This document shows, in pieces, positions 1 to 24,300 of a DNA stretch of 60,220 bases; positions within the stretch are counted from its first letter, which is position 1, and the number at the start of each line of letters is the position of its first letter. The notes under the pieces are model-generated. The model searched no databases. It saw nothing but the letters and a program-made list of their open reading frames with translations, and had not been told where the DNA came from. The stretch is from Paecilomyces variotii (lineage: Eukaryota). The translations under genes were made by a program, and so were the position numbers. Location: NCBI GenBank assembly GCA_004022145.1, contig RCNU01000016.1; one strand, 5' to 3'.

Positions 1-1372
1 ATTAATCTTAGATTGCTAGCTTCTTAATAGCCTATAATATAGATTTAGATTTAATTATTCTTAAAGAGTTATTTATTAATCTTAAGGCTATTATATTTAA
101 AATTACTATATTTCTCGCCTAATTTATTAAGTTTAATAGCTTTAATAAGATTAATAATAATCCTTATATTTACTCTTACTTTCTTTCTTTTCTTAATACT
201 ATTTAAAAGGTAAATTAGTAAACTTTATTGCCTAATATTAATATGCGAGATATATATTTCTATTTATAGGCTATTTAAAAAAATTATTAAAAAGTCTAGC
301 TTACTATATTTAGTATACTTATAAAGATATAAATAGCCGATTTAATCTAGGACTAATAAATCTAATATATCTAAGGAATTACCTTAATTACTTCTTTAAA
401 GTATTATAGTAAAGGAAAGTATTTTTTAATTTAGAATTGCGATCTGCGAGACCTTAGCTAAAAATAACTATATTAATTTCTTCTTCTAGCATAGAACTAT
501 TTCTTAAAGTTAGTAAGAAAAAAGACCTTAATTTTATCTTTATAGTACTATATTAATAAAGTTAAATTAGGGTAAAATAAGTGTCTCTAATATATTATAA
601 AATGGTTAAGTCTAATAGCTTAAATAGAGGATTATCTATTATAAGAGAATAATATTTAACTTAAAAACTATATTTAAATAAAAAAGAAATAGTTAAGAGT
701 ATAATATAATCTTAATAGTTTTAACTTAAGTTAGATTTTTAATAAGTTATATAAATATATAAGATTTTCTTTAGAAGTTATAATTTATTAATTATATATA
801 GATTTTTTATTAACTTATTAAGAGAATAATTTAGAAAATACTTTTTATTTAAAATAATAATAGTAATTAAATATATATTCTTTAGTTTAATAACTTAAGC
901 TTTTAAGAAAAATTATATATTATATATAATAATACTATATTAGCACTATAGTTTATAAATATATATATTTCTATAGCTATAACTCTATATATATATATTT
1001 AATAATATCTTAAAAGACTTTCTTTATAGTTTTATTTTTAAATTAATATAATAATATTATATTTAAACTATTTTTTAGCTATAGATTTAAAGGTCTATAA
1101 CTAATAATAATATAAAATAATATAAAATTAAAGCTTTAATATCTATAATACTGCGAACTATATAAACTATTTAAACTAAATTATTTAAGTTAATCTAACT
1201 TAAGTTAGTTTAGCGTATAATCTTAGCAAATATTTTAGTTTTTTTAGTTTTAAACTAAACTACCAGAATATAGTTTAGTTTAAGTATAGTTTTTTTATCT
1301 TAAACTGAAAACTACTATAAATAGTTTAACTCCCTCTTTAAACTAAACTAAACCGCCTATATAATTACTTTA
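1..1372 (-). mobile_element. Left end of a second copy of the hAT element, running out of the window
   Basis: 1-1372 is the reverse complement of 6843-8210 with transition differences and small indels; terminates in tataattacttta (1360-1372), matching the TIR. Confidence 0.93.
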
Positions 1373-5700: not shown

Positions 5701-6842
5701 TTATTTTTAAAGTCTTTTATATAATATTTAAGCTATAATTTTCTTAAGCACTTAAGGCGGCTAAAATCTAGGGACTTACTATACTTTATATAAAATAGTC
5801 TTAATATATTATAATAGAGTAATCTTAAAATAAATTCTTTTAATATTCTCTATAAACTATTTTAAAATATTTTCTCTTTTATAAAGTAACTTTAATAGTA
5901 TAACTCTTTTATTCTCTAAAAGCTTTATACTTATAATTAATTATTCTACTTATTTAGAAGTTAAATAAGACTCTTATATAATTATTATAATTTATAGCTA
6001 TAGATATTTATTATATAATATCTCTATATTTAGTACTAAGTTTCTGTAGTAATATTCTAAATATAGCTCCTATTATCTTAGATCTTCTTTAGGTATTTTC
6101 TTATTATTTAATCTCCTTAGGTTAATAGAGTTTATCTTATTAGCCTTTTACTTCTTTAGTATATTAACTGCTATATAAATATAGTTATAATAGCCTATTT
6201 ATAGCTTAAGGTCTAATTACTTTAATATTTTATATTTAATATTTAAGTCTATAAGATTTAGGCGGTAAAGGAATTTTACTAGATTATCCTTAGCCTCTAA
6301 TTAGCTAATTAATTTTATAGGTTATAATTTATAAAATCTTAATAAATTAAAAGTCTGCATTTTTACAGTTATATATTTTATTCTAATTACTTTAATCTAG
6401 ATATATAAGTTTACTAGTATTTTTATTACTACTTTTCTTTATCTTTTAGTAAATATTATACTAGTAAAATAATATCTGCTTAAGCTTTTAAAGACTTTAG
6501 CTAAATATTCTTTATTATCTTAATATTTTAGTCGGTTAGTCTATATCTAATAAACTTAAAGTAGTTATTTTAAATCTAAGTAAATAATATAAAACTTTAA
6601 CGTTAAGTCTCTTAGGCTAATTAAATCCTCTTAAATAAGCTCTACGTTTATATAATATAGCTAACTGTATAGAAGCCTATAGAGATTTAGGGCCTCTTAT
6701 TAGCTAAGAGTAAATACTAAGTTAATATAGTTATATATAATAACTATCTATAAGAATATTAAAATCTTTTAAACCCGCTAACTTTTAAGTCCTTTAATTA
6801 GCTTAAGGTTTATACTAAGCCGGTATAGTTATACACAACAAC
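2770..6842 (-). pseudogene. pol: Gypsy pol (RT, RNase H, integrase), RIP-inactivated
   Basis: Reverse-strand translation IFLNNISIKGSYLKYN at 5283-5330 restores to FLDDIGIKGPYSKY by transitions only; integrase core motifs at ~3550-3850. Confidence 0.82.
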
Positions 6843-7060
6843 TAGAGTAGTTATATAGGCGGTTCGGTTCGGTTTAAAGGGGGAGTTAAACCGCCTATAG
6901 CGGTTTTCAGTTTAAGGTAGAAAAACTGTACTTAAACTGAACTATATTCTAGTAGTTTAGTTTAAAACCGAAAAAACTAAAGTATTTGCTAAGATTATGC
7001 GCTAAACTAACTTAAGTTAAATTAACTTAAACGGTTCGGTTTAAATAGTTTATATAGTTC
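6835..7060 (+). repeat. Left TSD, TIR and subterminal GGTTC/AACCG pentamer repeats of the hAT
   Basis: ggcggttcggttcggttt at ~6858-6875, aaaccg and acggttcggttt units, plus RIP-decayed versions (gtttagttt). Confidence 0.85.
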
Positions 7061-9027
7061 GCAGTATTATAGATATTAAAGCTCTATATTATTTTATATT
7101 ATTATTAGTTATAGACCTTTAAATCTATAGCTAAAAAATAGTTTAAATATAATATTATTATATTAATTTAAAAGTAAAACTATAAAGAAAGTCTTTTAAG
7201 ATATTATTAAATATATATATATATAGAGTTATAGCTATAGAAATATATATATTTATAAACTATAGTGCTAATATAGTATTATTATATATAATATATAATT
7301 TTTCTTAAAAGCTTAAGTTATTAAACTAAAGAATATATATTTAACTACTATTACTATTTTAAATAAAAAGTACTTTCTAAATTATTCTTTTAATAAGTTA
7401 ATAAAAAATCTATATATAATTAATAAATTATAACTTCTAAAGAAAATCTTATATACTTATATAACTTATTAAAAATCTAACTTAAGTTAAAACTATTAAG
7501 ATTATATTATACTCTTAACTATTTCTTTTTTATTTAAATATAGTTTTTAAGTTAAATATTATTCTCTTATAATAGACAATCCCTTATTTAAGCTATTAGA
7601 CTTAACTATTCTATAATATATTAGAGATACTTATTCTGCTTTAATTTAGCTTTATTAATATAGTATTATAAAGATAAAATTAAGGTCTTTTTTCTTACTA
7701 ATTTTAAGAAATAGTTTTATGCTAGAAAAAGAAATTAATATAATTATTTTTAGCTAGAGTCTTATAAATCGCAATCTTAAATTAAAAGATACTTTCCTTT
7801 ATTATAATATTTCAGAGAAGTAATTAAGGCAATTCTTTAGATATATTAAATTTATTAGTCTTAAATTAAATTAGCTATCTATATCTTTATAGGTATATTA
7901 AATATAGTAAGCTAGACTTTTTAATAGTTTTTTTAGGTAGCCTATAAATAGAAATATATATCTTATATATTAATATTAGGTAATAAAGTTTATTAATTTG
8001 CCTTTTAAATAGTATTAAGAAAAGAAAGGAGATAAGGGTAAATATAAGGATTGCTGTTAATCTTATTAAAGCTATTAAGCTTAGTAAATTAGGCGAGAAA
8101 TATAGTAATTTCAGATATAGTAGCCTTAGGATTAATAAATAACTCTTTAAGAATAATTAAATCTAAATCTATATTGCAGGCTATTAGGGAGTTAGCAATT
8201 TAGGGTTAATTTAATTTTCTAATACCCTTAAGTTAAATAGAATAATTTTAGAAGAAGAATAATTATTTTTTATAAAATAATAAGAAAGAAATAATAATTT
8301 CTATTAAGAGTCTTCTATATAAAAAATTTAAGAAAAGAATCTAAATTTTATATTCTAACTTAAGTTAAAATATATTAAAAGTTTCTGCTAAAACTTTAAA
8401 GGCTATAAAAAAAAGGTCTATTATTTTAAGAAATATACTCTGCTAAAAAGTAAGAGAGTAATAATTTTTTTTATATAATAAGTCCTACTATTAATTAAGA
8501 GATAAATAGTTAATATAATCTAACTTAAGTTAGAATGTTAACTTCTTAATTAGGACTAGTATAAGTTATAGATTATATAAACTAATTTTATTTTTTTCTT
8601 ATTATATTTATTTCTTTTCTTAAATATATTTTTTATATTTTTCTTACTAATTTTAACTTAGTTAGAATTGGCTTTTTATATATAGATAAGAAAATCCTAT
8701 AAGAATAAAATAATATCTTATTAATATTATTATCTTAATTTAAATTCTTCTAAGACTCTTAGTATAATAAGCTTTTAATCCTTACTTTAGTAGTCTATAT
8801 TTTAACTTAAGTTAGAATACTGCAGATTTATTTACTCTATTATAAGATTTATAAAAATAAGAACCCCTAGATTATTTTACTAAATATTAGAACCCTTAAT
8901 CTATTTTATTACCCTTTAAAAACCCTAGTTTGCTTATAAATAAACTTTAGTTAAATAGTCTTAGTATAAAGTCTCTTAATAATCTTAACCTATTAGACTA
9001 TATATTTTAACCTAAGTTAAAACTAAA

Positions 9028-11990
9028 ATGCCGCCTAAAACTAGTCTATTACCTAAATTTATTATTCCCGCAGTATTATTAAAAAGAAAAAAAAAAAATT
9101 AGCTAAGCAGAGTTTAGTAGAGATAGCTTTATTAATCTTTTCTCCTTTCTAGGAAGATACAGTTTAACTAAAACTTAAAGAGGTATTTCTTAAGACTCTA
9201 TATATTAATATATAAGATCTAGATAGTAAATAGAAAGATAAAGAAAAAAATTATAATTTTAATAAAGATTATATAAAGAACTTAAAGCAGGAATTCTAAG
9301 TAGCTATTTAATAGTAAAATATTAGCACTCAGATAAAAGTAATAATAAAATATAGCGACTTTAAATAAGTTATTAAAACTTTTATTAAAAACAATAATAT
9401 AGATAATGCTAATACTATAGAGGCATATAAGGAGGTATATAAGGAGGCTCTTAATATTATGCGCTCTAGAAATAAGATAGAAAGAGATATATTTATCTAT
9501 CTTAATAAATAGCTAGATTCTGTTTAGAAACTTATTTTTTAAGTAAGATAATATTGCTAAGCTGCTTTATTAGAGCTTCTGCTTAAGCAGACTTAAGTAG
9601 TTATTACTTATATTAAGACTTCTAAAGGTAAAACTATTTAAAAAATAAGTCTTAATATATGTTTTTATTTTAACTTAAGTTAGAATTTAGCTAATTATAG
9701 ATTAATAAGCCTAGTTATAGGCAGTTAATATCTATAATAAAGAGAAGATAGATATAGAATTATTAACTATATTATGCTTAAACTATAAGAAAATAGAGAG
9801 ACTTAATATAGATAGAAAATATATACTAGCTTTAATTTAGGCCTTTAAGCAAAAAGATTAAATATAATAGAGAGAGTTACTTAAAAATATAGATAATTTT
9901 AGAAAGTAAGTTTAGCCAGTTATTAGTATCTTATTAAAATATATAGTATGCGCTTAAGCTCTCTTATAAAAAGACTTATAGATATAGTAGATTTTAAACT
10001 ATATTTATACTCTATATAGGAGAGTATATTATAACTTTACTTTTAGTAAGCTTATAATTAATTTAAAACTAAATTATATAAGTTAAGAAAATTACTTAGT
10101 AGTTCTTAATTATTCTAACCTAAGTTAGATTTAAAAAGCTAAGTTTAGAAGGTTTAAAAAATAGGCTATAAAGATCTTTATAGAGAAGTTTAGCGCTTAT
10201 ATCTTAATAAATAATTAGTAATTTATTATTAATTATTATTACTAAGCTAATAATAATATGCTAAGAATATTATTCTTTCTATTTAGGTCTAATTATAAGA
10301 GAAATAAGCTATACTCTGCCCTAGATAAAAAGTAGTTTTTTAAACTGTCTCTACTATAGTTAATAGTAGAGGTTTCTTCCCTTAAGAATCTTATAAGGAG
10401 ACTAGGATTTCTTATTATATTAAATAATAAGGACTATATAATAATATAGAAAAACCTGTATAAAAATAATAACTTTAAGTTCTCTTTTTAGTAAGATTTA
10501 ACTTAAGTTAGATATTAAAGATATAATATTAATTAGTTATAGAAACTTATAGGTCGAACTATAAAATAAAGTAATTAATCTATTAAAAGCTATATTTAAA
10601 TATATAATATTTTAGTACTAACTAGAATAATATTATTTATCTCTTATATCTAACTGTTTAAAGATATTTTAATAGGCTTATAAACTTTAGTTAATTCTAT
10701 TTCTTATTATAGAGGACCCTAATGCAGCTGCATATTTTATTAATATGTTTCTTAATAAGATCTATAAAGACCCCTATTAGGGCTAGTAAGACCTAAAATA
10801 AAGTATAAGCCTTTATTTAATTTAAGTTAGAATTTAGACTAATCCTTTTTAGCTAAATAAGCTACTAAATATACTGCGAGATATAGATATTATTAAAAAA
10901 GATAAAGACTATTATAAGGAGTATTAAACTTATTTATTATAGTTTAACTATTATTATTAGGCAAGAGTCTTATAAAAATACTTAAAAATAATTAGAGGCG
11001 AGTTTAAGGGCGTTATAAAAAAGTTTAGTAATACTATTAAGATTATAAGTTTTAAAAAAACTAACTTAAGTTAAAACTAATATAATATAGGGTAACTATA
11101 TATAGACTTTTATAGACTTTAAAAATATAACTATAAGAATATAATTTTAATAGAATTATAATATTAAGAATATTTATATTTTAAGATATTATAAAAAAGA
11201 ATTAAAGAAAAAGGCTAATCTACTAAAGGCGCTATAGACCTACTAGTATATAAAAACTAATATAATTAAAATACTGAAATTAAGCTAGAGAAAAGCTAAC
11301 TCTTAAAAAGAGGATCTTATCTAAAATAAAATATATATATTATTAATTTAACTTAAGTTAGATATTAATCTAATATAAGAGAAGTAAAATAATTATCTTA
11401 GAGCTTTGCGGGAGGTAGCTAATCTACTTATATAATAGGATTAAGAGCCTAATATTAATAATATTAATAAATTACTAGCCTAATATATTATTAATTATAA
11501 TTTAATTATTTAGAAAGCTATTTAAGAGTAGAAAAAAATATATATAATAAAGCTAGGTCTGTCTATTAAACTTTTATCTAAAAAAGAATTAATAAAGGAT
11601 AAAAAATAAAAGAAGAAGCAGGAAAACTTAGAATAATTAAGATATATAAATCTTAACTTATTATATAAGAAGCAGAAAATCTTAAGAGACTTTATTAGAG
11701 CTTACTTATAAATAAGTATATTTTATCTAACTTAAGTTAGATCTAAGATTAATTTATTATAGACTATAGATTTAATATAAATAGCATAATAAAATAAGAG
11801 TAATAAAGTAATCTAGGCTAACTTAAACAGGCTTTAGCAAGAAAAAAAAGATAAAAAAAAGGAAAGATAGAATAGGCAGATATTAATTAAAGTTTTAATA
11901 AATAAGAAGAAATTAAGGTTTTAGTAGATATTAATTAAGGTTTTTTAAGGGATAAGAATTTTAAGAGAATAGTAAATTATAATAATAATA
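9028..11990 (+). pseudogene. Multi-intron cargo gene of the hAT; predicted ParB/Srx-like (DUF3723-like) N-terminal domain, RIP-inactivated
   Basis: ATG CCG CCT AAA at 9028 (probable slip in the A-run at ~9087-9098). Codons ttt taa gta aga taa tat tgc taa gct gct (9537-9566) restore by transitions only to LQAGQHRQAA; upstream NRxFDEDHVKNLKQEF (~9249-9296); downstream AWLWAVDIYD..LRSN..PDTDG (~9709-9820). About seven short introns. 3' end approximate. Confidence 0.62.
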
Positions 11991-12809
11991 ATTCTTATAA
12001 TTTAATTAAACTAACTTAAGTTAAAACTTTATAAATAAAGCAATTTTTAATATAGTAATAATAGGCAATTAATAAGATCTTATAGTCTATTATTTTATAC
12101 TACTAATATAATAAACTATCTAATATAGTAAAAGAGTAAATAGTAAGTATAAATTCTAACCTAAGTTATATTTAAATAGGTGCTTATTTAAAAATATAGC
12201 ATTTATAAAAAATCTTAATCCTAAAGATTAGCCTTCTAGTATAGTAAGTAATTTAAGTATAATAGATTAAGGTACTGCTATTAACCTATCTTAAGCATAT
12301 TATTTTATAATTTATTAACTAGACTTAGCTTACTAATATTAATATAGATAGGTTCTGAAAAATATCTAATAATAAAAAAAAAAAATAAAAAGTCTTAGAG
12401 ATAAGATACTTCTGCACTATTGCGATTAAACTTTTTAAGTAAATTCTAACTTAAGTTAGATTTAGGTATATTATTCCTAACGCAGAATTTCTTATACTTT
12501 TTTCTAGGCTAAAGTTATTTAATATATTTTAAAGTTTTAATAGTTCTTAATTCCCCTTATCTATAATTTTTTTTTAACAAAGTAAAACCCTTACTTCTTA
12601 TTATTATTTTAAAAGATAATAATAGTTTTTAATTATAGAATATTTAGTTCAGTTTAATCTTATAAAAGCTTAATATAATCTAATTTTTATCTTAGAACCT
12701 TTAAATATAATAAATAAGAATTTAACTTAAGTTAGAATGCTATAGATATTATACTGCCGCCTATATTATTATCTTTAAATTTCTCTTCCTTATCTTTTTT
12801 TAATGTAGA

Positions 12810-15400
12810 TATATTAAGATTACCAGGTCCTTTATTATAGTTTTAGAATTATGCTATTTATACTTCTATAAAAACCTATAAGACTTCTTTATCTTTAGAT
12901 ATTAATATCTAGAATACTAATTTTAATTATAATTCTATTAAATAATCTAAGCCCTAATCTGAAATTAATACTCCTAACTTAACCTAACTTAAGATAGTAA
13001 GATATAGTTAAATAAAGGCTATTATTTATCTAGCTCTTCTAGAATAAGTTTAAATCTTTAAATCTTAATAAATTAAAACAGAGTTTGCAAAATAATAATC
13101 TAAGTTTTAATAAGTAAAATTAAAAACTTAATTAGCTATATAGTAATACTATTAAGAAGTTATAGATAATATATCTAGCTTTTCTTATATATAATATCTA
13201 TATTACTTAATATTTCTTTAATATCCTTATAAAGGAGGAAATAGCACTAGCTTAATAGCTACCTATATAAAAAGGGCCGTATATAGATCTAGAGATAAGA
13301 CTTAGAAAAATAGTAATATTTAAAATATATTAATTGTAAAGGTAAGAACTAGTTAATTATTATAAACTTTATTACTAATATTTCTATTAGAAAATCTTTA
13401 ATCTAATATATATATTAGACGCGTTACATAATTAGATCTTATATTTTATTACAGAATATTGCTAATTATTTTAAATAGTTAAATATATTTAGTTCTGCTA
13501 TATGCTATATACAGCTGCTAGTAATTTATATCTAGAATTACTTAACCGATATTAGATTTAAGCACGCCTTTTTAAACTTAAAGAAATTAATTATATAGAA
13601 ATATTATTATATTTACTTAAGTAAAGAAAGATTTCTCTAATATTAGATTATTAGACTAGTTAAAGTTAATATTCTTTTCTTACTATAATAGGGTATTTTA
13701 TTAATATAAAATAAGTATATAGAGAAATACTCTTAGCCTTTAATCCTGTTTATAAATTATATATTAGGAAGAACTTAGTTAAAATAATGCTAAAGAATCT
13801 TTATTAATATAATCTATAATATTAAATCCTTACTATTATAATAGATAATATAAGTAATAATATTATTCTAATAGTAGAGCTAGATAAAAGCCTAAGAGAT
13901 AAGCTTAAGATAAATTTATTGTTAGAAGATTTCTAAGATATAATATTAAGTTAACTTATTTTAAATTGCTATTATATTCTATATTTAGTATATATTTTAT
14001 AATTTATAGTTAATGCTTTATTAGGTAAACTCTATATTAATACTCCTATTAATAATAGTATTAGTTAGGATATAAAAAAGAATAGAGGCCTATTATATCC
14101 TTAAGATATCTTAATATTATTAGAAAAGGTATATTCTCTATTTAATTTAAGTTAGATTAATATTAATAGGTTTTTATATAAGTTCGCAAGGTTACTAGAT
14201 TTATTAATATAAGCCCTTAATATTAAGAATATTTCCTAATATTATAATAATTAAGTATTAATTAATTAAAATTATTACTTCTTAATTGCTAGATATAATA
14301 GAATTTAATATATTTTATATTTATATATACTCTTAAACTATATGCAGTAATTAGATAATTTATTATATTATAGGCTAATAAAGATATTTATTTTCTAATA
14401 TTATCCCCTACTAAATAGTATTAGATTAAATATCTTATTAAGTTAACCTAGCTATTCTATAATCTTACTCTTATTGTATTAAAGATAAATAGTCTATTAG
14501 TTTATAGGGTTTTTAAAATTTATAATATTATCTTTAATTATCTTAATAATTATATAAAGCGTTTAAAATTAAAAAGAGCTATATAGAAGATATAATTTTA
14601 AAATATTTTATTTAAAGCTTATAATAAGTTACGAACTTATTATATTAAAATATATAAATTTTAAGGATTTATATATATAATTATAATAATCCTTTACCCC
14701 AGTTTAAAGCTTAAATATTTTAAAATTTAAGTCTGGCAAGATATAATAAAAAACTAGTATAATATTTATAAAAAGATTTTTTATAAGGTATTTTAATACT
14801 ATAATAATTAAAATCTAAATATTAAGGTATAATTAAGAACTTATTTATCAGTCTTAATATTAGATTATGCGCTTATATAATCTAAATATTATTATCTTCC
14901 TTTAAGTACTACTAGTACTTATTAAGAAATTTAGACTTATCTTATTAAAGGTAATATTCTATCTAATATTATACCCAAATTACATAGTTTTATTTTAACT
15001 TAAGTTAGATTAGCTTTATTAGAATTAGATAATATCCTTAACTATTAGAGAATTAATAAACATTAATTTCTAATTTTTATAATAATAGCCTAAGATTTTT
15101 TTATAATCTTATTAAGTAGTATTAGTATAGAATAATTATTTAATAGTACTTAAGATATCTGCTATTACTAATATAGCTAACTACTTCCTAATATAATCTA
15201 TGCTTTAATACTTCTTATATATATTAAAAATTTTATTATTCGGCGGGAGTTTAAGGCAATAATTAATAATATAAATATAATACTTAATTATTAATAATCT
15301 AAAAGAGAAGAGACTAAATTGCTAAACCTAATTAGTAATAATAAGGATATAGATAATATATTAGAAAAAGAGATAGAGGTTAATAATAAAGATTGTTAAA
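12810..15400 (+). pseudogene. hAT transposase (BED finger, DDE core, hATC dimerisation domain), RIP-inactivated
   Basis: De-RIPed motifs: GGNGTSSMATH (~13233-13266), SLxLDCWTS..GYFID..WxYREILL (13634-13736), TITTDNASNN (13832-13861), PCLAHILQ (13979-14002), LNYWR..MARDF..SVGVERLFNSARDICHYRRSQL (~15037-15183). Introns at ~13342-13390, 14129-14181 and 14951-15022. Start approximate. Confidence 0.92.
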
Positions 15401-15739
15401 TAGAGTAATTTAAGGGTTAAGGTCTTTTAAATATTTAAATAGATTAACCTATTACTAACTCTATATATAATAAAGGAGAATTAAATTAATTGCCTATATT
15501 TAGAGCTTTTATATATTCTTAGAGGAATATAGTAACTATAGATAGACTTAAATCTTCTAATTATCGCTTGCGCTAGATTAACTATATTAAAGGCTAATAT
15601 AAATATTAGTAATCTAACTTAAGTTAGATTTAATTATTAGATCTAATATCTTTCTATTAATTTCTATTTAATATTTAATAATAAATATTATAAAAGAATA
15701 AATAGTTCTTAAAGGTCTATATAAAAATTAAGATTAATA

Positions 15740-15957
15740 TAAAAAAACTAAAAAACTTAAATAAAACTAAAAAAACTAAATAAAATTGAAAAAATTAAAC
15801 CTATCTGAACTATATAGTGCATTATAAACTATTAGTTTAGTTTATAAAATCTATAAACTGTTCTAGTTTATAAAATAGTAAACCGAACTAAACTATAGGC
15901 GGTTTAATTTAGTTCGGTTCGGTTTTTTTAGTTTACTATAACTACTCTAATAATAAC
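15740..15957 (+). repeat. Right subterminal AACCG/GGTTC repeats, TIR and TSD of the hAT
   Basis: Runs of aaaactaaaa, aaaccgaactaaac (~15879-15893), gttcggttcggttt (~15912-15925), then TIR 15937-15949 and TSD 15950-15957. Confidence 0.85.
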
Positions 15958-18900
15958 TATAAGTGCAAATATTAAAATTCTAAAGCTTAAAGCGAATACC
16001 GAGGCATATTACTACTATAATACTAAAATTATAAGTATTATATAGGTCTTAAGGATAATTACTTTAAAGTATAAAATAAAGAGATTCCTTTAATTATATA
16101 ACTGCTTAATTTACTTACAGGATTTAAGTTTAGGGCCCCTAAAGGCCTTAAACCTAAATCGTTTTATATCTAATACCTTTAAATCCTCTATTTAAAACTA
16201 AGCGTAAAGCTCTTATATACTAATTTAAATCTAAAATAAAAGATAATAGTAATAGCTTTAAGTCTATATTAACTAGCTAGCTGTAAAATCTGTAAGTAAG
16301 TCTAGGACACGCGTAGCGTAGCCTAAGGGCTTATCTTTCTATAGATATAATAAAAAATAGCTTTATTATTAAGAGTTTTTATTATAAATTTTAATTTTAT
16401 TTACTAGAGATATTTAAGAATATAATCTATATCGCCTATAGATATAATAAAAATAAGAAATTATATAGTAATATAATTAATAGTAATAGGTATATCTTTA
16501 TAATACTCTATATAGTTTATAATAGTCTATATTTAAACTATTATTAAGTAGTTTAGACCTAGAATTATAAATAGGCTAAGATATTAAATAAGCCCTAGGC
16601 TTATTATATTAATTTTAAAACCTATATTAAGAATAATATATACTTTCTTCTTATTAATTACTATTATAGTCTTTAATATTTTAATTATATATATAATTTC
16701 TTTATTATATATTAGTAATATATATTCTCTAAGAAGTCTTTAGCCTATAACTCTTATTTTAATATTTATTCTCTTTATATTAAGTTTAGGAAAAAATATA
16801 ACTTTAGCATCTAAAAATAATATTTAAAAAAAGATATAATAAATAGTAAGATAATTACTAAGTAATTCTTATATAGTTAAATTAAAGATAGGCTAATTAA
16901 GGACTTTATTTAGAAGAGTATTAATATCTATTAAGTTCTTAAGCTTATAAAATAGCCTATTAAGTATACTTTTTATATTTAGCTTTACTTTTAATTTATT
17001 AGATTATATAAGAATAAGCTTTATATTTTCTATAGTTATATCTTTTATATAGATATTATCTGCTAAACCTTTTATAATTATCTTAAATAGCTTCTAAAAA
17101 GACTATATTCTAATATAATAGCTCTTAATAGCAGAATAAGTATTAATTTAAGAAGCCTTAGAAGTTAATCTTAATATAGTAAATCTTATATTTACTTAAT
17201 AGGCTATAATACTGTTTTTATTACTATTTTCCTATTCCTTATTTATATTATTAACCTTATTATTCTGCTTAAGGGTTAAGCTAATTAAAGTAAACTAAAA
17301 CTAAATATAAGCTTAAACTATAGGCTTATTATTTTAAGTAGCTTCTTATATAATTTTAATTAGCTTTTTACTATACTAAAAAGAAACTTTAATATCTTTA
17401 TTCTTAGTCTTACTAAAATAAATATATATTATTTCTAGGTATTAATAAATATATCTCTTATAAATATTCTTAAGATAATTAAGATAATTATTAATCTTTT
17501 TATTAGATTTTTTATAATAATAGTAAATAGGCTTTACTTACTATTAGTAAGATATAATTAAGATAATATTTACTCTTATAGTAATATAGTATTCTTATTA
17601 ATTCTATTTATCTCCTTATAATATAAGAGCCTTAATAAATAAAGATAGAGCTTTAAATTAAGTAGCTAAGTTACTAACTATTTTATCTACCTCCTTATAT
17701 ATAATCTCTAATTAGCTTAGCTAGTAATTAGGATTTAACTATTATAGCTTTAGTTTAGCTAGAGATTAATATTCTTTTATTATAATATTTAAGTCCCTAT
17801 TTTCTTTTTAAAGTTTAAAGAGTTTATTAATATAATTATTTATAATAATAATCTCTAAAACCTTCTATTTTATTTTATTAAACTTTATTTCTTTTAATTC
17901 TTTAAAATTTATCTTAAGCTTCTTTATTACCTTCTTATTAAGCTTTTTAAATAATCTTTAGAAAAACTAGATATTATAAGTATATTTATCTAAATAACCT
18001 TTCTTAAAGACTACCTTAAAAATACTTATATACTCTTAGATATAATCCTTTACTCTATTATCCTAGGCATACTTCTTATTTTTATATACCTTTAAATACT
18101 TATAAATATATACCTATTATTTAATATCCTTCTTATAAAACTCCTTTTTAACTTTTTTATAAAAAGCCTCTTAATCTTGCTTAATATAAAATATAATTAT
18201 CTTTATTTAATTATTAATCTAAATATTATAATATTCTGGCATTTAATAGAAGATTTTATTATTCTTTCCTTTAAGTCTATAATTTATATATAGGTTTATA
18301 AAGCAATTTAAGAAGTTAATAGTATTCTTTCTATTAAAATAAAGAGCTCCTAATATATCTAGTAATAGTATAGGGATAAATACTTAAGATATAACTAAAT
18401 TAGCTATAGCATATAACTTCTATTTATTTAGAGAAAGAAAAAAAGTTTAGAAAACTAATAAGATAGGGGTATTTTAATTAAGTAAAGATTTTAATTCTTA
18501 AGTATTATCTCTCTTACTATTTATTAAGAATAATTATTTTAATTCTGCTATTAGAGAGAATTCTATCTCTCTTTTTTACTCTAGATAAAGTATTAATATA
18601 ATAATCTCCTATAGAAGACGCCTTTTTTAATTAGCTTTCTTCTATTTCTTATAAGCTATTCTTTACTAGCAATAAGTATACTTAACTACTTTTAATAGGA
18701 TATAATACTAAATAAATAATAAGAAGATTTACTACTTAAGAATAGTCTTCTTATAAAGATTATTCCCTTTAGAAGTTAATATAGAAAGGCTCTTTATAAC
18801 TTATATTTAAAATAGTTTATTAAACTAGCTTCTCTATATATTATATATAAGGACCTTAATAATTCCCTTTTCTCTTTGTAATAGGATTTAGGGTTAACTT
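15958..18900 (-). pseudogene. gag: gag/protease region of Gypsy relic 1 (continuation past the hAT)
   Basis: Joined to 6842 through the 8-bp TSD; lies 5' of RT on the minus strand; zinc-knuckle-like CYYC..H....C at ~17555-17595. Confidence 0.6.
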
Positions 18901-18989
18901 AATACTTTAGCTTTTAAGCTCTTATTTTCAGTATTACTTCTTAATAACTAAATCCTCTATATAATAGTATTTCTTTGCGTTAGTTATTA

Positions 18990-19250
18990 TTTAATATAGA
19001 AAAGATATTAATAAGGAGAATAGCGTAAGAAGCTATATAAGAACTTAAATTATAAGGCGTAACTAGGTATAGAGAATAGAAGTATTATAGGATAACCTAG
19101 TACTATATAAATAGGACTATAGTATATATAATGCTAAGAAGTAAAGAGATATTAATCTAAATATATAGTATAGTTAAGGGAATAAGCTAACTATAGCTTC
19201 GACTATATAATATTATTACGTAATATAGTTATAAGTTCTCTATAATATTA
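18990..19250 (-). repeat. Probable 5' LTR of Gypsy relic 1
   Basis: Non-coding, relatively G-rich block directly upstream of gag with a composition change near 19250; no partner LTR in the window, so boundaries are unverified. Confidence 0.4.
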
Positions 19251-20106
19251 CCTTTTTAATATTAATTAGTTAAAGACTCTTTTTAATTAGTATTTCTTAT
19301 CTCTTAATATTATAAAGTTTATTAACTTATACTTTTATTAGATATATAGCTACTATTTTTTAATCTCTAATACTAAAAGCTAATTCTCTTATAACTATTA
19401 AAGTTTAATATAATTATTTAATAATTAATAAGACTTAATCTATAGTCTTTTAGCCTTATTTCTTTATAGCTTTATAATAATCTTTATTAGTATATTTATA
19501 ATTTTTTTTACTTATATTTTTAATTCTTTTAGCTTATTAATAGTTAATATTTTTTTTTACTTTTTCTAATAGCTCTTATTAGTTTAAGAAATTATAAAAA
19601 TTATTAATTACTTTATTATACCTGTTTTAAAAATTTAAAATAATTACTACTATATTACTTATAAACTAAATCTTTTCTTCTTTATTATTAGCCTTATTTA
19701 TTATCTCTTTTATAAGCTTATAAATTTTACTAACTATAATATATATATATATTTTAAGTTAAAGAGCTTTATCTTAATAGATAATATTTTATATTTTTAG
19801 TATATTTTTTTTCTATTTTTAATATATATCTTTATAAAATAATTCTTTAAAATAGTTTCTAAATAAAAAGATATATTTAAAAGATAAGATAAGGTTAAGT
19901 TTAGCTTAATTTAGTCTTTAATTACTTCTGCTATAGTATTATATAATATAAAAAATAAGATTTTTATAATAAGGTAAGAATCCTTTATTTATTACTTATA
20001 TTCTTTATCTAATATTTTTTATTTTTAGCTTTATTTATAGACTTTTTTAAGGTATTTAAACTAATATTATGTATTTTTTAGTTATCTCTTTTTTTTTCTT
20101 AATTAT

Positions 20107-21386
20107 TATTAAATATCTTTAAATTCTTTCTTTCTCTTAAAAAAGATACCTTTATCTTAAATTTATTTTTCTTCTCTTCTTATTATAGTACTAATACTTA
20201 TTTTATTATTATTTTTTTATTTCTTCTTCTTTTAAACTAACTTTTTATTTAATATTAAACTTATTTTATTACTAGCTTTTTACTTCTCTCTTTTTAAACT
20301 AATATTTTTAAAAGGAGAGTATTAGAATAATAACTATATATTTTAATCTAAGTAATATTTAATTAATATTATTATTATTATTACTTAATTACTAATTTTC
20401 TTACTTAAATATTATATTATTATTTATAGTTAATATTTTATTTTAATTCTCTTATAAATAATAGCCTTTTAAGTAATTTCTATAGATTAAATCTTAAAAA
20501 GCTATATTATTTAACTTCTTAAGCTTATAAGAATCTTTTTAAAGAACTTTTTTAATTTAATATAATTTAAGCTAGTAATATACTAGTTTAGTAAAGTAAA
20601 ATATCTTAAGCTTTATATTATAGAGTAAAATAAATTATCTTTTAATTAGCTATTTTTTATAAAATTACTTTCTATTATTAAAGGCTTTTTTACTAGCTTC
20701 TCTTATATATTAAATATAAAGCTATATTTCTTCTATATCTTAATCTTTATTAAATATCTTTAAATTCTTTCTCTCTCTTAAAGAAGATACTCTTATCTTA
20801 AATTTATTTTCCTTTTCTTTCTATTATAGTACTAGTACTTATTTTATTATTATCTTTTATTACTTCTCCTTTTAGACTAATTTTTTATTTAATATTAAAC
20901 TTATTTTATTATTAGCTTTCTATTTCTCTCTTTTTAAGCTAACTTTTTTAAAAAGAGAGTATTAGAATAATAACTGTATATTTTAATTTAGATAATATCT
21001 AGTCTATATTATCTTTATTATTATTTATTTGCTAATCTTCTTACTTAAGTCTTATATTATTATTTGCCGCTAATATATTTTCTTAATTATCTTATAAATA
21101 ATAGCCTTTTAAATAATTTCTATAGATTAGATCTTAAAAAGCTATATTATCTAACTCTTTAAGCTTATAGGAATCTTTTTAAAGGACTTCTTTAATCCTA
21201 TATAGTTTAAGCTAGTAATATATTAATTTAGCAGAGTAAGATATTTTAAGCTTTATATTATAAAGTAGAATAAGTTATTTTTTAATTAGCTATTTTTTAT
21301 AAAATTACTTTCTATTATTAAAGGCTTCCTTATTAGCTTCTCTTATATATTAAATACAAAGCTATACTTCTTCTATATTCTAATCC
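20107..21386. repeat. Tandem duplication, two units of ~640 bp
   Basis: 20107 tattaaatatctttaaattctttc recurs at 20748; 20701 tcttatatattaaatataaagctata recurs at 21341; the intervening sequence is collinear with transition differences. Confidence 0.92.
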
Positions 21387-24300
21387 CTAAGTTCTATCTA
21401 CCTTATATAAAAAGAAGGAGGTCTTCTATAGTTTTAATTTTATCCTATATTAATATCTTTTAAGTAAATACTTCTAATTTAATTAATAATATTATATTAT
21501 ATCTTATAATTACTCTAAATAGCGTTAAATTAATAAAGGTTTTAATTATATTCTTATCTGCCTAGATTATAGCTAGTAAATAATCTACTTAATTTATCCC
21601 TATTTTTTTATAAGTTTCTTAATGCTGCGTATAAAAGACTTATATATAACTTTAACTACTTTATTTACTTATAGGTTATATAGTAAGACTTTAATATAAT
21701 TAATCTTATATTTCTATACTAATATATTAATTATAATTTTATTCTCTAATCCTTTATTATTAATAAGAGTCTCTATTATTTTTTAATAATAAATCTAGTC
21801 TTCTTATAGAAACTTAATAATAGCTCTTAAAATAGGGCTATTAAGTGCTTTATATTTAATCTAGCTAAAATTATCCTAAAATATAATAATATAAATCTTT
21901 TCTTTATTAGGCAGCATAATCTTATAAATATCTAGATATAGCTTTAATCTCTCTAATAGAATAAATATTAACTATAAAGCTTCTTTTATATATTCTTTAT
22001 TAGCTCTCTAATATTTATTATATATCTTTATTTATCTAGTAATATACTTATATAGGCCTTTCTACTAATATTAATTAATTACTTTCTTATATATTGCTTT
22101 ATATTTTTAATATCTATATTCTTTATAAAAGGCAGTAAGAATCTCTTTTTACTTTCCTTTATTATTAATAACTATTTAATAAGGCTAATTCTACTATATT
22201 CTCTAGAAAAGAATACTATCTTGCACTATATACTTTATAGCCTTCTTCTTAAACTTAGCATATTATCTCTAATCTATATTATCTGATTTTATTATAGTTT
22301 ATAATTATTCTGCGATTAGCAAAGACTTTTTTAACTAATATAATATAGGCATTAACTAAGGGATATTATTTAATTCTATTTCTTATATATTAGTATAATA
22401 AATTATATAAAACTGTAGATCTAAGAATTCTTTTATATTATTATCTTCTATTTCTTTTAAGTCTTATTTTATTATTAGCTTCTAAGATAATCTATCTATA
22501 ATTAAGTTTTTTTTCCCCGATATATAGATAATATTAAAGTTAAATAGCTAAATCTAAATAATTCACTAAATAATTATTAACTTAGAGAAATCTATAGCTG
22601 TCTTATTTAATTGTATAACTAGAGTTTTTATATCTATCTCTAGTTAAAAATATATATTATATAAATATATTTAGAATTTATAAAGCGCCTTTAGTATTAT
22701 CTTATATTCTAGTTTTTTTCTATTATATTATCTCTCTACCTATATCTATACTCTACTTTTATATCTAGCTGGGTATCTCTTATTAAACTTTTTTTCTTCT
22801 TAAATAAATTATACTCTTTATTTATTACTATTAGTATTAATATTAATAATAATTATATCTCCCTTTTTATAATTAATTGGCTTAAGTATTAGTGCTATTA
22901 TTAGGGCTATTTTTAAAATATCTATTATTTCTTATTATTCTAACCCTTAAAAAAAGTCTTATCTCTTCTTTAGTATTAAGTATATTAGCTTAGCTTTAAT
23001 AATATATTCTTTAATTTATATTTAGTAATAGACTATAACTCCTAGAAATTCTCTTATTTTTTATAAATTCTAATAAAATAGCTATTTTAAGATCTTAATT
23101 ACTTTAGCCGACTTAAGATATCTCCCTTTAGTATTATATATATAGCCTACTACTTTAATTCCTAATACTATAAATTATAATTTCTCCTTAATAATTATTA
23201 AATCTGTAAGTTTAAGACTATATAATACCTTATTAATATTCTAGATATATTTAAATATAAACCTTCTAATTCCTAGTAGTATCTCTTCCCCTTTATAATT
23301 AGTCTTAGATTCTTATATTAGTATATTATTTAGAAATATATTATAGATATTAGAAATATTATCTGCTAATATTTTTATAACCCCTTATATAAACTCTTAT
23401 ATTATATTTATCTATCTTTAGAATAATCTAGCTTAATAAACTAAACTAATTTCTAATATATAGAAAGCTGTTAAGTCCTATAATTCTTTAGCTAACTCTA
23501 ACTAATTATACCTAGAGAATAAGTCTATTAGTATTAATACTAATATTCTACTAAACTCTTCTAAGAACTTATTAACTAAAGGGGGTAGATTAATATCTTA
23601 TATTATTATTTAATTAACTTCTATAGCTATATTAATTAGCTAATATTTATTATTTTTCTTTTTTACTAGAAATTATAGATTTTAATAGGGTCTTTAACTG
23701 CATTTAAGGATCTTTATATTTATTCTCTCTTTTATTATTTTTTATATTATATTATAGAGTGTCTTTAATATTAGGAAGCTTTTTACCTGCTATAGTTTAT
23801 AACCTATAGTCTAAATAATAATTAAAGATATAACTTTTAAGTATATTTATCTAATCTCTTTAAAGGTCTAGATAAAGGCTATTTTTTAGGTAAAAAGTAT
23901 TTCTATTAATAGTTCTTTCTCTCTTAACTATAGATTATTTTTTATAATAAGGTTCTTTAGATAGTCTAGTATTAATCTTATTTCTTTTTTAATATTTAAT
24001 ATCTTTAGCTAGATATATTTAGTAAATCTTTTATATATTTTTTTTATATTTTTTTAAGGGTTCTTATAATAATACTCCCTAATAATTTCTTTTTATTTTA
24101 ATAGCCCCTCTAAAGCTATTATAAGTCTATTTAATATATTTACTAAATAAATCTTTTTATATTTCTTCTTATATTATATATTAATAGAATATTTTATTTT
24201 TATAATAAAAAGGTTATACCTTTTAGATAATTTATACCCCTATAATCTTCTAACTCTTTTATTTAATTTAGTAGGTTTAAATATCCTTACCCCTTTATTT

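What the first reader, a model, noticed from the sequence alone, without database searches (positions are those of the whole stretch)
9645..15022. The palindrome sits inside nearly every intron of the element and avoids exons
Cores at 9671, 10116, 10499, 10818, 11062, 11349, 11728, 12157, 12447, 12723, 14143 and 14996 each lie between a (RIPed) GTAAGT/GTAAGA/GTATRT-like donor and a CTAAC/CTAAT-like branch plus YAG, in introns of ~45-95 nt. A clear case is gtaaat 12439 to cctaacgcag 12485. Removing 14129-14181 and 14951-15022 restores transposase frames (EK|VRK, IK|ELDNILNYWR). One intron (13342-13390) lacks the motif. The introns may be carriers that let DNA binding sites be spaced through coding DNA, or an introner-like family that spread within the element.
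Basis: partly seen in the sequence, partly recalled or inferred. Interest (0 to 1): 0.82.

Follow-up and report, generated by a model that had tools for sequence, protein, structure and literature searches.

The report
Exon-avoiding palindrome array in a dead transposon
A mutated, inactive 9-kb fungal jumping gene carries about twenty copies of one 20-base palindrome spread along its length, never in protein-coding exons but inside introns and between genes, which suggests a spaced set of binding sites rather than a family of copied introns.

Summary
The palindrome cluster is real. TAACTTAAGTTA is the commonest 12-mer in the window, and every exact copy lies in one 9,107-bp RIP-mutated hAT transposon (6843-15949) or in its partial second copy (1-1372).

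Homologues found by HMMER let me map the transposase gene as 4 exons and 3 introns. No core lies in 2,377 nt of transposase exon (5.5 expected, P=0.004).

Upstream, 9075-11939 carries a significant plus-strand coding signal, an unidentified second gene that I call ORF-X. Its reading frame switches at or near cores 9671, 10499 and 11062, and three further cores put a stop codon in frame.

Two parts of the claim do not hold:
- Splice motifs alone are weak evidence in this AT-rich DNA.
- Twelve of the 21 cores lie where I detect no coding signal, including one 165 nt from the left end and one 5 nt after the transposase stop.

In a transition-proof alphabet the shared sequence is only about 20 nt, so an introner family is unlikely. 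My best reading (0.45) is a spaced array of dyad-symmetric protein-binding sites that genes tolerate only in introns. No RNA evidence or un-mutated DNA copy could be obtained.

The parts
6843..15949 (+). Complete RIP-mutated hAT-type DNA transposon, 9,107 bp
   Evidence: The ends are defined by a 13-bp perfect TIR and an 8-bp TSD and by where similarity to the second copy stops. GC is about 19%, with CpA 57 and TpG 75 against TpA 1897.
6835..6842 (.). Left target-site duplication ACAACAAC
   Evidence: It differs from the right copy ATAATAAC by two C-to-T transitions.
15950..15957 (.). Right target-site duplication ATAATAAC
6843..6855 (+). Left terminal inverted repeat TAGAGTAGTTATA
   Evidence: 13 of 13 bases match the reverse complement of the right end.
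15937..15949 (-). Right terminal inverted repeat
6860..7041 (.). Left subterminal zone with CGGTT/AACCG repeats, a different motif from the palindrome
   Evidence: CGGTT at 6860, 6865, 6870, 6901, 7032 and 7037; AACCG at 6889 and 6966.
15881..15924 (.). Right subterminal zone with CGGTT/AACCG repeats
   Evidence: AACCG at 15881; CGGTT at 15900, 15915 and 15920.
1..1372 (-). Partial second copy of the element (its left 1.37 kb), inverted and running off the window
   Evidence: 1-998 matches 7213-8210 at 93% and 1101-1372 matches 6843-7114 at 85%. Cores 722 and 1196 correspond to 7478 and 7008.
9075..11939 (+). ORF-X, an unidentified plus-strand coding-like region. Frames: m0 to about 9627, m1 about 9701-10490, m2 about 10543-11048, m0 about 11116-11939
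   Evidence: Gene-structure score is 66.9 bits against 19.1 +/- 6.5 (maximum 38) in 100 Markov resamples, and 4.2 on the minus strand. Codon-position periodicity in 9020-9670 has P=4.7e-5. No homologue was found.
13057..13341 (+). Transposase exon 1 (frame m1). The true start lies a little upstream and cannot be seen after RIP
   Evidence: RIP-aware spliced alignment, 6 homologues. A BED-finger-like stretch was recognised by eye only (recalled motif).
13342..13390 (+). Transposase intron 1 (49 nt, GTAAGA...ACTAAT...TTAG), without a palindrome
   Evidence: All 6 alignments that reach exon 1 jump at 13354-13390/96 and change from m1 to m2.
13391..14128 (+). Transposase exon 2 (frame m2)
14129..14181 (+). 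Transposase intron 2 (53 nt) holding core 14143. The 3' end reads AA in this copy
   Evidence: All 11 alignments that cover both sides change from m2 to m1 at or next to it, 4 exactly at these bounds and a fifth (P0012) by an equal 53-nt jump at 14132-14184. In 8 of 11 the core lies inside the jump.
14182..14950 (+). Transposase exon 3 (frame m1, ends in a split codon)
   Evidence: P0002 is 57% identical over 14332-15000.
14951..15022 (+). Transposase intron 3 (72 nt, in frame) holding core 14996
   Evidence: Five of 10 alignments place a jump over it. P0002 stops at the core's TAA.
15023..15609 (+). Transposase exon 4 with stop codon TAG at 15607-15609
   Evidence: P0054 residues 1-174 of 175 align to 15085-15603 at 49% identity.
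7008..7019 (.). Core (exact), 165 nt from the left end, among the CGGTT repeats. No coding signal
   Evidence: Conserved in the second copy at 1196.
7478..7489 (.). Core (exact). No coding signal
   Evidence: Conserved in the second copy at 722.
8356..8367 (.). Core (exact). No coding signal
8521..8532 (.). Core (exact, full 16-mer TCTAACTTAAGTTAGA). No coding signal
8803..8814 (.). Core (exact). No coding signal
9008..9019 (.). Core (1 mismatch, TAACCTAAGTTA), about 60 nt before the ORF-X signal starts
9671..9682 (.). Core (exact) between the ORF-X m0 and m1 blocks
   Evidence: The frame change is placed at 9518-9622. The gene-structure model puts an intron at 9628-9709.
10116..10127 (.). Core (1 mismatch). 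ORF-X is in frame m1 on both sides. The core reads N-L-S and is then followed by TAG
   Evidence: Intron status unresolved.
10499..10510 (.). Core (exact) at the ORF-X switch from m1 to m2, with donor-like GTAAGA 8 nt upstream
   Evidence: Change point at 10493, range 10480-10506. Modelled intron 10491-10542.
10818..10829 (.). Core (1 mismatch). Frame m2 on both sides, with the central TAA in frame
11062..11073 (.). Core (exact) at the ORF-X switch from m2 to m0
   Evidence: Change point at 11070, range 11048-11160.
11349..11360 (.). Core (exact). Frame m0 on both sides, with the first TAA in frame. No GT within 70 nt upstream
11728..11739 (.). Core (exact, full 16-mer). Frame m0 on both sides, with the central TAA in frame. 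GTATAT 12 nt upstream
12012..12023 (.). Core (exact), about 70 nt after the ORF-X signal ends.
12157..12168 (.). Core (1 mismatch). GTAAGT-like donor upstream. Coding signal weak or absent
12447..12458 (.). Core (exact, full 16-mer) inside the textbook-looking unit GTAAAT...CCTAACGCAG (12439-12485). No coding signal around it
12723..12734 (.). Core (exact). No GT within 70 nt upstream. No coding signal
12985..12996 (.). Core (1 mismatch, TAACTTAAGATA), about 60 nt before the first homology-supported transposase codon
14143..14154 (.). Core (1 mismatch, TAATTTAAGTTA) in transposase intron 2, 14 nt after the donor
14996..15007 (.). Core (exact) in transposase intron 3, 45 nt after the donor and 15 nt before the acceptor
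15615..15626 (.). Core (exact, full 16-mer), 5 nt after the transposase stop codon

Best explanation
The 12-nt core is the centre of a roughly 20-bp dyad-symmetric motif, close to ATTC-TAAC-TTAA-GTTA-GAAT. It is a family-specific cis element of a two-gene hAT transposon, now inactivated by RIP.

About 21 copies run along almost the whole 9.1 kb, from 165 nt inside the left end to 334 nt inside the right end. In the 9-13 kb part they are unusually evenly spaced, about 330 bp apart. A 20-bp fixed palindrome with stop codons in two of its three frames cannot sit in coding sequence. So inside the two genes the copies lie in introns, and elsewhere they lie in untranslated or intergenic DNA.

I think the motif most likely works as DNA. 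It would be a repeated binding site for a dimeric sequence-specific protein: the product of the upstream gene ORF-X, the transposase, or a host factor. That protein would have to occupy the element at many spaced positions.

Shown: the array, its restriction to the element, exon avoidance, the intron location of two copies, the limit of similarity to about 20 nt, and presence of the motif's reading in an un-mutated relative.
Inferred: that it is bound by a protein, which protein binds it, and what the binding achieves.
For: - Over-representation and restriction to the element.
- No core in 2,377 nt of transposase exon against 5.48 expected, Poisson P=0.0042. Both gene-internal cores fall in the 174 nt of introns, P=0.0047.
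- The gene structure comes from RIP-aware spliced alignment to 12 homologues, with scores of 204-497 half-bits against 31-45 for reversed-protein controls.
- Cores also lie where there is no detectable gene. These include 7008 among the subterminal repeats, 15615 five nt after the stop, and 7008-9008 and 12012-12985 in DNA without coding signal. This fits a DNA element better than an intron-specific one.
- Conservation in the RIP-proof purine/pyrimidine alphabet covers only positions -4 to +15 and is symmetric. Outer flanks are at the random level.
- Spacing in 9008-12985 has a CV of 0.39 against 0.93 for random placement, P=0.0004.
- The terminal repeats are a different motif, CGGTT/AACCG, so the palindrome is a second, separate site class.
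- The un-mutated relative P0002 ends ...ILT and then stops, exactly as xTA-ACT-TAA predicts, so the motif is not a product of RIP.
- The RNA hairpin is weak at -4.6 kcal/mol. Whole introns fold no better than shuffles, with z from -0.03 to -1.96.
Against: - No binding protein is known, and ORF-X has no detectable homologue or domain.
- GT or GTA is enriched 6-15 nt upstream on the plus strand only (13/21, P=0.006; GTA 8/21 against 1/21 on the minus strand). That gives the units an orientation, which a purely symmetric DNA site would not need and which points to the RNA level.
- The motif contains CTAAC, which I recall as the fungal branch-site consensus, together with its complement.
- The even spacing could simply reflect exon sizes if most units are introns of one long transcript.
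- I saw no un-mutated DNA copy and no RNA. Because RIP hides CA and TG, the outermost TA steps of the core could have been different before mutation. P0002 constrains only the first T.
Confidence: 0.45

Rival explanations
1. RNA-level intron element. The palindrome acts in the pre-mRNA as a small hairpin (6-bp stem, UUAA loop) that contains a branch-site-like CUAAC and its complement. It would tune or gate splicing of the element's many short introns. On this view most or all units, including those I call non-coding, are introns of long transcripts.
For: - GT/GTA is enriched just upstream on the plus strand only.
- Two units are proven intronic, and seven lie at junction-like places in ORF-X.
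- The isolated 20-mer folds better than shuffles, z -3.64.
- 12439-12485 looks like a complete short intron.
- The CTAAC branch consensus is recalled, not tested.
Against: - The hairpin is weak at -4.6 kcal/mol, and four of the five whole introns fold no better than shuffles (z -0.03 to -0.51); only 12439-12485 folds somewhat better (z -1.96, 11 of 200 shuffles as good).
- Its position inside the two verified introns differs: 14 nt after the donor in one, 45 nt after the donor and 15 nt before the acceptor in the other.
- Copies occur 165 nt from the terminus among the terminal repeats and 5 nt after the stop codon.
- A downstream AG is not enriched.
- Core 11349 has no GT within 70 nt.
- One verified intron works without the motif.
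Confidence: 0.2
2. Introner-like origin. Each unit descends from a small mobile or copied intron that spread within the element, and the palindrome is the remnant of its symmetric core.
For: - Many short intron-like units share one motif.
- Symmetric, proliferating intron families are known in fungi (abstract of PMC8469720).
Against: - The RIP-invariant comparison shows no similarity outside about 20 nt: 0.49 and 0.51 against 0.501 +/- 0.004.
- Distances from core to the nearest GT and AG vary.
- The intron after 'YL..E/G' is old and shared by distant relatives. Many ORF-type homologues break off or diverge there, so at least that intron was not created by a recent insertion.
- No copies occur outside the element in this window.
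Confidence: 0.1
3. Chance, or a by-product of RIP in AT-rich DNA.
For: RIP makes the sequence low in complexity, and splice-like motifs and short AT palindromes are common.
Against: - 28 matches against 5.4 +/- 2.2 in shuffles, and none of 100 shuffles reaches 28.
- It is the top 12-mer of the window although it contains C and G.
- It is absent from the other roughly 44 kb of equally RIP-mutated DNA apart from chance-level one-mismatch hits.
- P0002 from an un-mutated relative reads as the motif predicts.
Confidence: 0.01

Closest known systems
Ac/Ds-type hAT transposons with subterminal transposase-binding hexamers (recalled knowledge)
   Same: 8-bp TSD, short TIR, and a hAT transposase with homologues that NCBI names 'HAT C-terminal dimerisation domain-containing protein'. 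Short repeats (CGGTT/AACCG) cluster within about 200 nt of both ends.
   Different: The palindrome is a second motif class, about 20 bp and dyad-symmetric. It is spread over the whole 9 kb rather than confined to the ends, and it sits in introns where it crosses genes. The element is about twice the usual size and carries a second gene.
En/Spm (CACTA) with its 12-bp TnpA-binding motif arrays, and PIF/Harbinger with a separate DNA-binding ORF (recalled knowledge)
   Same: A DNA transposon with two products. In those systems one product is a DNA-binding accessory protein that recognises many copies of a short motif in the element. This is the closest working analogy for ORF-X plus the palindromes.
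   Different: Those motifs are subterminal, not distributed along the element and not housed in introns. They belong to different superfamilies. ORF-X has no shown DNA-binding domain.
Introner-like elements and internally symmetrical (stw)introns of Hypoxylaceae (PMC8469720; abstract and outline read)
   Same: Families of short fungal introns that share sequence and have an internally symmetric, inverted-repeat structure.
   Different: According to the abstract, those introns resemble each other strikingly, derive from an ancestral stwintron with 45-55-nt terminal inverted repeats, and sit in many host genes. Here only about 20 nt is shared, and the units are confined to one transposon. At least 12 of the 21 are not in detectable genes.
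Fungal hAT elements that carry an extra gene: TET/JBP-encoding hAT7 of Puccinia (PMC12730594, passages read) and histone-H3-capturing hAT of Pseudocercospora (PMC6710886, abstract read)
   Same: A hAT element with a second gene. In hAT7-1_PCor and its relatives the extra gene lies upstream of the transposase in the same orientation, as ORF-X does here. The Pseudocercospora copies are also RIP-inactivated.
   Different: ORF-X shows no detectable similarity to any family. No palindrome array is mentioned in the passages I read.

Membership tests
hAT superfamily DNA transposon | 8-bp target-site duplication | tested here: met
   ACAACAAC and ATAATAAC, identical apart from two C-to-T transitions.
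hAT superfamily DNA transposon | Short terminal inverted repeats | tested here: met
   13 of 13 bases, TAGAGTAGTTATA.
hAT superfamily DNA transposon | Transposase homologous to hAT transposases | tested here: met
   phmmer gave 204 hits at E<=1e-3 and 31 at E<=1e-10. Cluster members are named HAT C-terminal dimerisation domain-containing protein. Spliced alignments scored 204-497 against controls of 31-45.
hAT superfamily DNA transposon | Pfam hAT dimerisation or BED domain hit on the protein itself | tested here: not met
   No Pfam families for the six X-read frames or for single exons. I attribute this to RIP damage. Motifs were seen by eye only (recalled).
RIP-mutated repeat | Depletion of CpA/TpG with excess TpA | tested here: met
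   CA 57, TG 75, TA 1897, AT 1355, AC 253, GT 279. This gives TpA/ApT 1.40 and (CpA+TpG)/(ApC+GpT) 0.25. The usual thresholds are recalled.
Spliceosomal intron (units 14129-14181 and 14951-15022) | Removal restores the reading frame and collinearity with homologous proteins | tested here: met
Spliceosomal intron (units 14129-14181 and 14951-15022) | GT...AG boundaries | tested here: inconclusive
   14951-15022 runs GT...AG. 14129-14181 runs GT...AA in this RIP-mutated copy. An AG at 14168-14169 is phase-compatible but fits the homologues worse.
Spliceosomal intron (all units) | Spliced reads in RNA | not testable with these tools
Spliceosomal intron (units in 9671-11728, ORF-X) | Frame logic of the flanking coding sequence | tested here: inconclusive
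   Three of 7 coincide with a frame switch. Three of 7 have a palindrome TAA in frame, and 1 of 7 is open but followed by TAG. Splice-site pairs do not discriminate.
Introner / introner-like element family | Copies similar to each other over the whole intron | tested here: not met
   Purine/pyrimidine conservation only at -4 to +15. Outer flanks 0.49 and 0.51 against 0.501 +/- 0.004. No longer repeat families.
Introner / introner-like element family | Presence in unrelated host genes | not testable with these tools
   No genome is held for this window. There are no copies in the other 44 kb of the window.
Subterminal transposase-binding repeats (Ac type) | Clustering within the terminal few hundred bases | tested here: not met
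   The palindromes span 7008-15615. The CGGTT/AACCG repeats do meet this feature.
Known structured RNA family | Rfam match | tested here: not met
   No matches at gathering score over 6800-16000.

The most novel reading that the evidence does not exclude
A DNA transposon keeps an operator-like 20-bp palindrome at roughly 330-bp intervals along its entire length. To run this array through its own genes it uses introns as housing, so some of the element's introns are maintained at least partly because they carry a DNA-level site. The unidentified upstream gene ORF-X would encode the dimeric protein that reads the array, for example to compact or mark a long element for transposition or to shield it from silencing. 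A hint of depth in time: a relative only 41% identical (P0023) ends its read-through of the same intron in N-L-S and then stops, which is what AAC-TTA-AGT-TAG would give.
Probability: 0.3. Interest if true: 0.75.

Novelty: new variant of a known kind. Interest (0 to 1): 0.55.

Why it matters
Transposons are known to carry repeated protein-binding motifs near their ends. An array that runs through the whole element, is evenly spaced and crosses genes only through introns would be a different architecture. It would also give a concrete case of introns kept as carriers of DNA sites. That would bear on two questions: why some mobile elements are intron-rich, and how long (9 kb) cut-and-paste elements are recognised or organised. 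It also points to an uncharacterised second hAT gene.

On the method side, the work shows that RIP-ruined genes can still be mapped. Reading stops as X and running exhaustive HMMER found relatives where Pfam and word-indexed searches found none. A transition-aware codon score then recovered the exon structure.

If the motif turns out to be only a splicing signal or a passive remnant, the finding is a curiosity of one transposon family.

Tried and rejected
- Pfam on all six frames of the element and on single exons read with X: 0 families.
- Word-indexed protein search, three times: transposase part with 'longer', ORF-X exon 9021-9629 with 'near', ORF-X 11115-11939 with 'shorter'. None scored E<=10. 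The tool says this is weak evidence of absence.
- PDB phmmer on the three plus frames of 7020-13002: one chance-level hit (archease, E 0.27) and nothing else. Minus frames were not searched.
- RNA evidence: the run search listed 24 runs, 2 of them RNA with shares of 0.12-0.19. Nothing was laid, so there is no verdict on splicing or on habitat.
All are single or near-adjacent occurrences with unrelated flanks. The only recurrent family lies beside bacterial two-component genes. No relative of the element was found. An un-mutated relative might spell the outer TA steps differently and would then be missed.
- Stop-codon density by frame and purine periodicity were too weak to assign frames even in known exons.
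- Standard tblastn found hAT similarity only in 13565-13906 and 14332-15369 and nothing upstream.
- The extra C-terminal 320 residues of P0158 do not match ORF-X: 34.7 against a reversed control of 36.2.
- Literature: searches for the motif strings found only primers and unrelated text. Searches on hAT, intron and palindrome found no description of such an array. The library lacks most subscription journals and Repbase reports, and supplements were closed.
- tRNA and promoter scans were not run.

Full report
THE SETTING

The whole 60-kb window is 12-24% GC. In the stretch of interest CpA (57) and TpG (75) are almost gone while TpA (1897) abounds. That is the signature of fungal repeat-induced point mutation (RIP; the usual thresholds are recalled).

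Of these, 23 lie between 722 and 15626. The other five are one-mismatch hits, at chance level. With 17 exact copies it is the commonest 12-mer of any kind in the window, ahead of pure AT repeats.

THE ELEMENT

The copies belong to one mobile element, 6843-15949 (9,107 bp).
- It has a perfect 13-bp terminal inverted repeat, TAGAGTAGTTATA.
- It has an 8-bp target duplication, ACAACAAC and ATAATAAC, which differ by two C-to-T transitions.
- CGGTT/AACCG repeats cluster within about 200 nt of each end.
- A second, inverted, partial copy occupies 1-1372 (85-93% identical). It keeps the two cores that fall in the shared part.

Inside the full element there are 21 cores. Fifteen are exact and six have one mismatch.

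GETTING HOMOLOGUES DESPITE RIP

Several standard routes found nothing:
- Pfam found nothing in any frame.
- A word-indexed search found nothing.
- A metagenome scan for the 16-mer gave 122 unrelated loci.

Exhaustive phmmer worked. Using 14182-15300 with stops read as X, it gave 204 hits at E<=1e-3.

The best hit, P0002 (228 aa, 57% identical, E 8.5e-71), is an ORF-type prediction from an un-mutated relative. It was seen on 4 Logan contigs, the longest 8,358 nt. Other hits cluster with Aspergillus and Penicillium proteins named HAT C-terminal dimerisation domain-containing protein.

THE TRANSPOSASE GENE

I built a transition-aware codon-to-residue score. Each observed T or A may descend from C or G. 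I used it to run a spliced alignment of 12 long homologues against 12700-15500. Scores were 204-497 half-bits, against 31-45 for the reversed proteins. The structure is:

| Part | Coordinates | Frame / note |
|---|---|---|
| Exon 1 | 13057-13341 | m1 |
| Intron 1 | 13342-13390 | no core |
| Exon 2 | 13391-14128 | m2 |
| Intron 2 | 14129-14181 | holds core 14143 |
| Exon 3 | 14182-14950 | m1 |
| Intron 3 | 14951-15022 | holds core 14996 |
| Exon 4 | 15023-15606 | stop at 15607-15609 |

The end of exon 4 is fixed by P0054, whose residues 1-174 of 175 align to 15085-15603.

Support for each intron:
- Intron 1: all 6 alignments that reach exon 1 jump at 13354-13390/96.
- Intron 2: all 11 alignments that cover both sides change frame at or next to it. 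Four do so exactly at 14129-14181, and a fifth (P0012) makes an equal 53-nt jump at 14132-14184. In three (P0156, P0157, P0159) the jump is placed just before it, at 14087-14130. This intron ends in AA, not AG, in this copy. An AG at 14169 would also keep the phase, but it adds four codons that the homologues lack.
- Intron 3: 5 of 10 alignments place a jump over it. The others bridge it, which is possible because its 72 nt keep the frame. Independent support comes from spacing. Fourteen of 15 spliced or intron-less homologues have 12-14 residues between the 'YL' and 'W' anchors, and one has 6. The window has 10 after splicing and 34 without.

P0002 reads ...YLTE|GNVPSNIISKSHSIILT and stops. 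It runs through the donor and ends at the central TAA of the palindrome, with L-T as xTA-ACT predicts. So the motif existed before RIP. Many ORF-type relatives break off or diverge right after 'YL..G', so this intron position is old in the family.

EXON AVOIDANCE

At the element-wide density of 21 cores per 9,107 nt, the 2,377 nt of transposase exon should hold 5.48 cores. It holds none (Poisson P=0.0042). The two cores inside the gene both fall in the 174 nt of intron (P=0.0047). Core 15615 lies 5 nt after the stop codon. The one-mismatch core 12985 lies about 60 nt before the first homology-supported codon.

A SECOND GENE UPSTREAM (ORF-X)

Nothing upstream of 13 kb resembles the transposase.

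To look for coding signal I made a codon log-odds model from simulated RIP of back-translated proteins. Among the plus-strand frames it picks the right one for three of the four transposase exons. It does not separate the strands reliably.

Applied upstream, it gives a strong plus-strand signal from about 9075 to 11939:
- m0 for 9075-9627 (+25.1)
- m1 for 9701-9906 (+8.8) and 10144-10490 (+7.7)
- m2 for 10543-10785 (+4.6) and 10831-11048 (+8.6)
- m0 for 11116-11330 (+8.9), 11380-11715 (+13.8) and 11770-11939 (+9.2)

A gene-structure optimisation scores 66.9 bits on the plus strand. One hundred first-order Markov resamples of the same 3 kb give 19.1 +/- 6.5 (maximum 38), and the minus strand gives 4.2. 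A model-free test of base composition by codon position gives P=4.7e-5 for 9020-9670, but only P=0.035-0.6 for the other blocks.

I call this ORF-X. It is purine-rich and would be rich in Lys, Glu and Asn. I found no homologue for it.

Precedents for fungal hAT elements with an extra gene exist. Some have it upstream of the transposase in the same orientation (PMC12730594, passages read; PMC6710886, abstract read).

CORES WITHIN ORF-X

Seven cores lie in ORF-X.
- Frame switches fall at 10493 (within-1-bit range 10480-10506; core 10499) and at 11070 (11048-11160; core 11062).
- A third switch falls at 9518-9622, some 50-150 nt before core 9671. This fits an intron from donor 9628 that encloses the core.
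- At four cores the frame is the same on both sides. In 10818 and 11728 the central TAA is in frame, and in 11349 the first TAA is in frame.
- In 10116 the core reads N-L-S and is followed at once by TAG.

Since P0002 shows the central TAA is a real stop in an un-mutated relative, these units cannot be translated. This is consistent with introns, but I could not fix their boundaries. Phase-compatible GT..AG pairs exist around most cores, but a third or more of all enclosing pairs (30-48%) fit by chance. Core 11349 has no GT within 70 nt upstream.

WHAT DOES NOT FIT 'THE PALINDROME IS AN INTRON MOTIF'

Twelve of the 21 cores lie where I see no coding signal:
- 7008, 7478, 8356, 8521, 8803 and 9008 to the left of ORF-X
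- 12012, 12157, 12447, 12723 and 12985 between the genes
- 15615 after the stop

. Some of these may be introns in untranslated regions. For example, 12439-12485 looks like a complete GTAAAT...CCTAAC..CAG unit. However, 7008 sits among the terminal CGGTT repeats, 165 nt from the end.

Splice-like motifs carry little weight here. A downstream AG or TAG is no more frequent than at random positions. A GT within 15 nt upstream is found at 13 of 21 cores against 0.33 at random positions (P=0.006; the threshold was chosen after seeing the data). The minus-strand mirror shows no enrichment (8/21). That plus-strand bias is real evidence that many units have an orientation, and it is the main point in favour of an RNA-level role.

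INTRONER OR SHORT SITE?

RIP makes only transitions, so the purine/pyrimidine pattern is preserved. In that alphabet the conserved columns among the 21 units run only from -4 to +15 relative to the core start. The consensus is near TAATC-TAACTTAAGTTA-GAATT and is symmetric. The 34-nt outer flanks are 0.49 and 0.51 identical, against 0.501 +/- 0.004 for random sets.

The repeat finder also gives nothing longer. The units are therefore not copies of a longer intron, which argues against an introner-like family such as the symmetric (stw)introns of Hypoxylaceae (PMC8469720, abstract read).

As RNA the 20-mer forms only a 6-bp hairpin (-4.6 kcal/mol). Whole introns fold no better than shuffles (z -0.03 to -1.96). 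Rfam has no match.

SPACING

Between 9008 and 12985 the twelve intervals average 331 nt with a CV of 0.39. Random placement gives 0.93, and only 0.04% of 20,000 trials are as even. This could reflect exon sizes or a requirement of the array itself.

CONCLUSION

The better description is an element-wide array of a 20-bp dyad-symmetric motif that crosses genes only via introns.

I favour (0.45) a DNA-level role as repeated binding sites for a dimeric protein, with ORF-X as the obvious candidate reader. This would be analogous to the accessory DNA-binding proteins and motif arrays of En/Spm and Harbinger (recalled).

An RNA-level splicing role (0.2) is kept alive by the strand-specific GT bias and by the CTAAC inside the motif (recalled as the fungal branch consensus). 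An introner origin (0.1) is disfavoured, and chance is excluded.

Open for lack of data: the pre-RIP spelling of the outermost TA steps, the identity of ORF-X, splicing of any unit, and whether the motif occurs elsewhere in the host genome.

One lead on age: P0023, 41% identical to P0002, ends its read-through of the same intron in N-L-S and then stops. That is what AAC-TTA-AGT-TAG would give. By my own rough estimate, made in no call, that ending would turn up by chance in about 2% of such sets of tails.

Noticed in passing
L005, L009, L020, L023, L031, L034, L044, L052, L055, L058, L062, L066, L068, L075 and about 20 short loci (L085-L121): The same 16-mer TCTAACTTAAGTTAGA sits at a fixed place in a conserved repeat of about 100 nt or more, found many times in several assemblies of about 48% GC. 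In L031 and L068 it lies just after a response-regulator/LuxR gene that follows a PAS histidine-kinase gene, so it is a bacterial intergenic repeat. It is unrelated to the fungal element.
   Followed up: partly
window 15001-27000 and 33001-45000, minus strand: The codon model gives coding-like scores of 32-69 bits on the minus strand in these 3-kb tiles, as high as for ORF-X. These are probably RIP-mutated genes of other transposons. Their strong negative GC and AT skews agree.
   Followed up: no
window 9907-9947: A GTAAGT...ATATAG unit of 41 nt without a palindrome lies inside ORF-X, where the frame signal becomes ambiguous (9948-10098). It may be a motif-free intron of ORF-X.
   Followed up: partly
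window 1525-1581 and 6298-6354: A 57-nt direct repeat (84% identical) lies outside the two element copies, about 150-200 nt beyond the end of the partial copy and about 490-545 nt before the full copy. The two copies may have inserted into related repeats.
   Followed up: no
window 15607-15615: The G of the transposase stop codon TAG is also the G of a donor-like GTAATC that directly precedes core 15615. The nearest acceptor would give an intron of only about 32 nt, so I did not treat it as an intron.
   Followed up: no
P0023 (protein): This relative is 41% identical to P0002. Its read-through of the conserved intron after 'YL' ends in N-L-S followed by a stop, which is the reading of AAC-TTA-AGT-TAG. 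The palindrome may therefore be conserved in that intron in a distant family member. The DNA could not be fetched.
   Followed up: partly
window 9008, 10116, 12157: Three cores share the same variant TAACCTAAGTTA, with C at position 5. The mirror variant with G at position 8 never occurs. Because RIP only removes C and G, this may be an old sub-type of the motif rather than decay.
   Followed up: no
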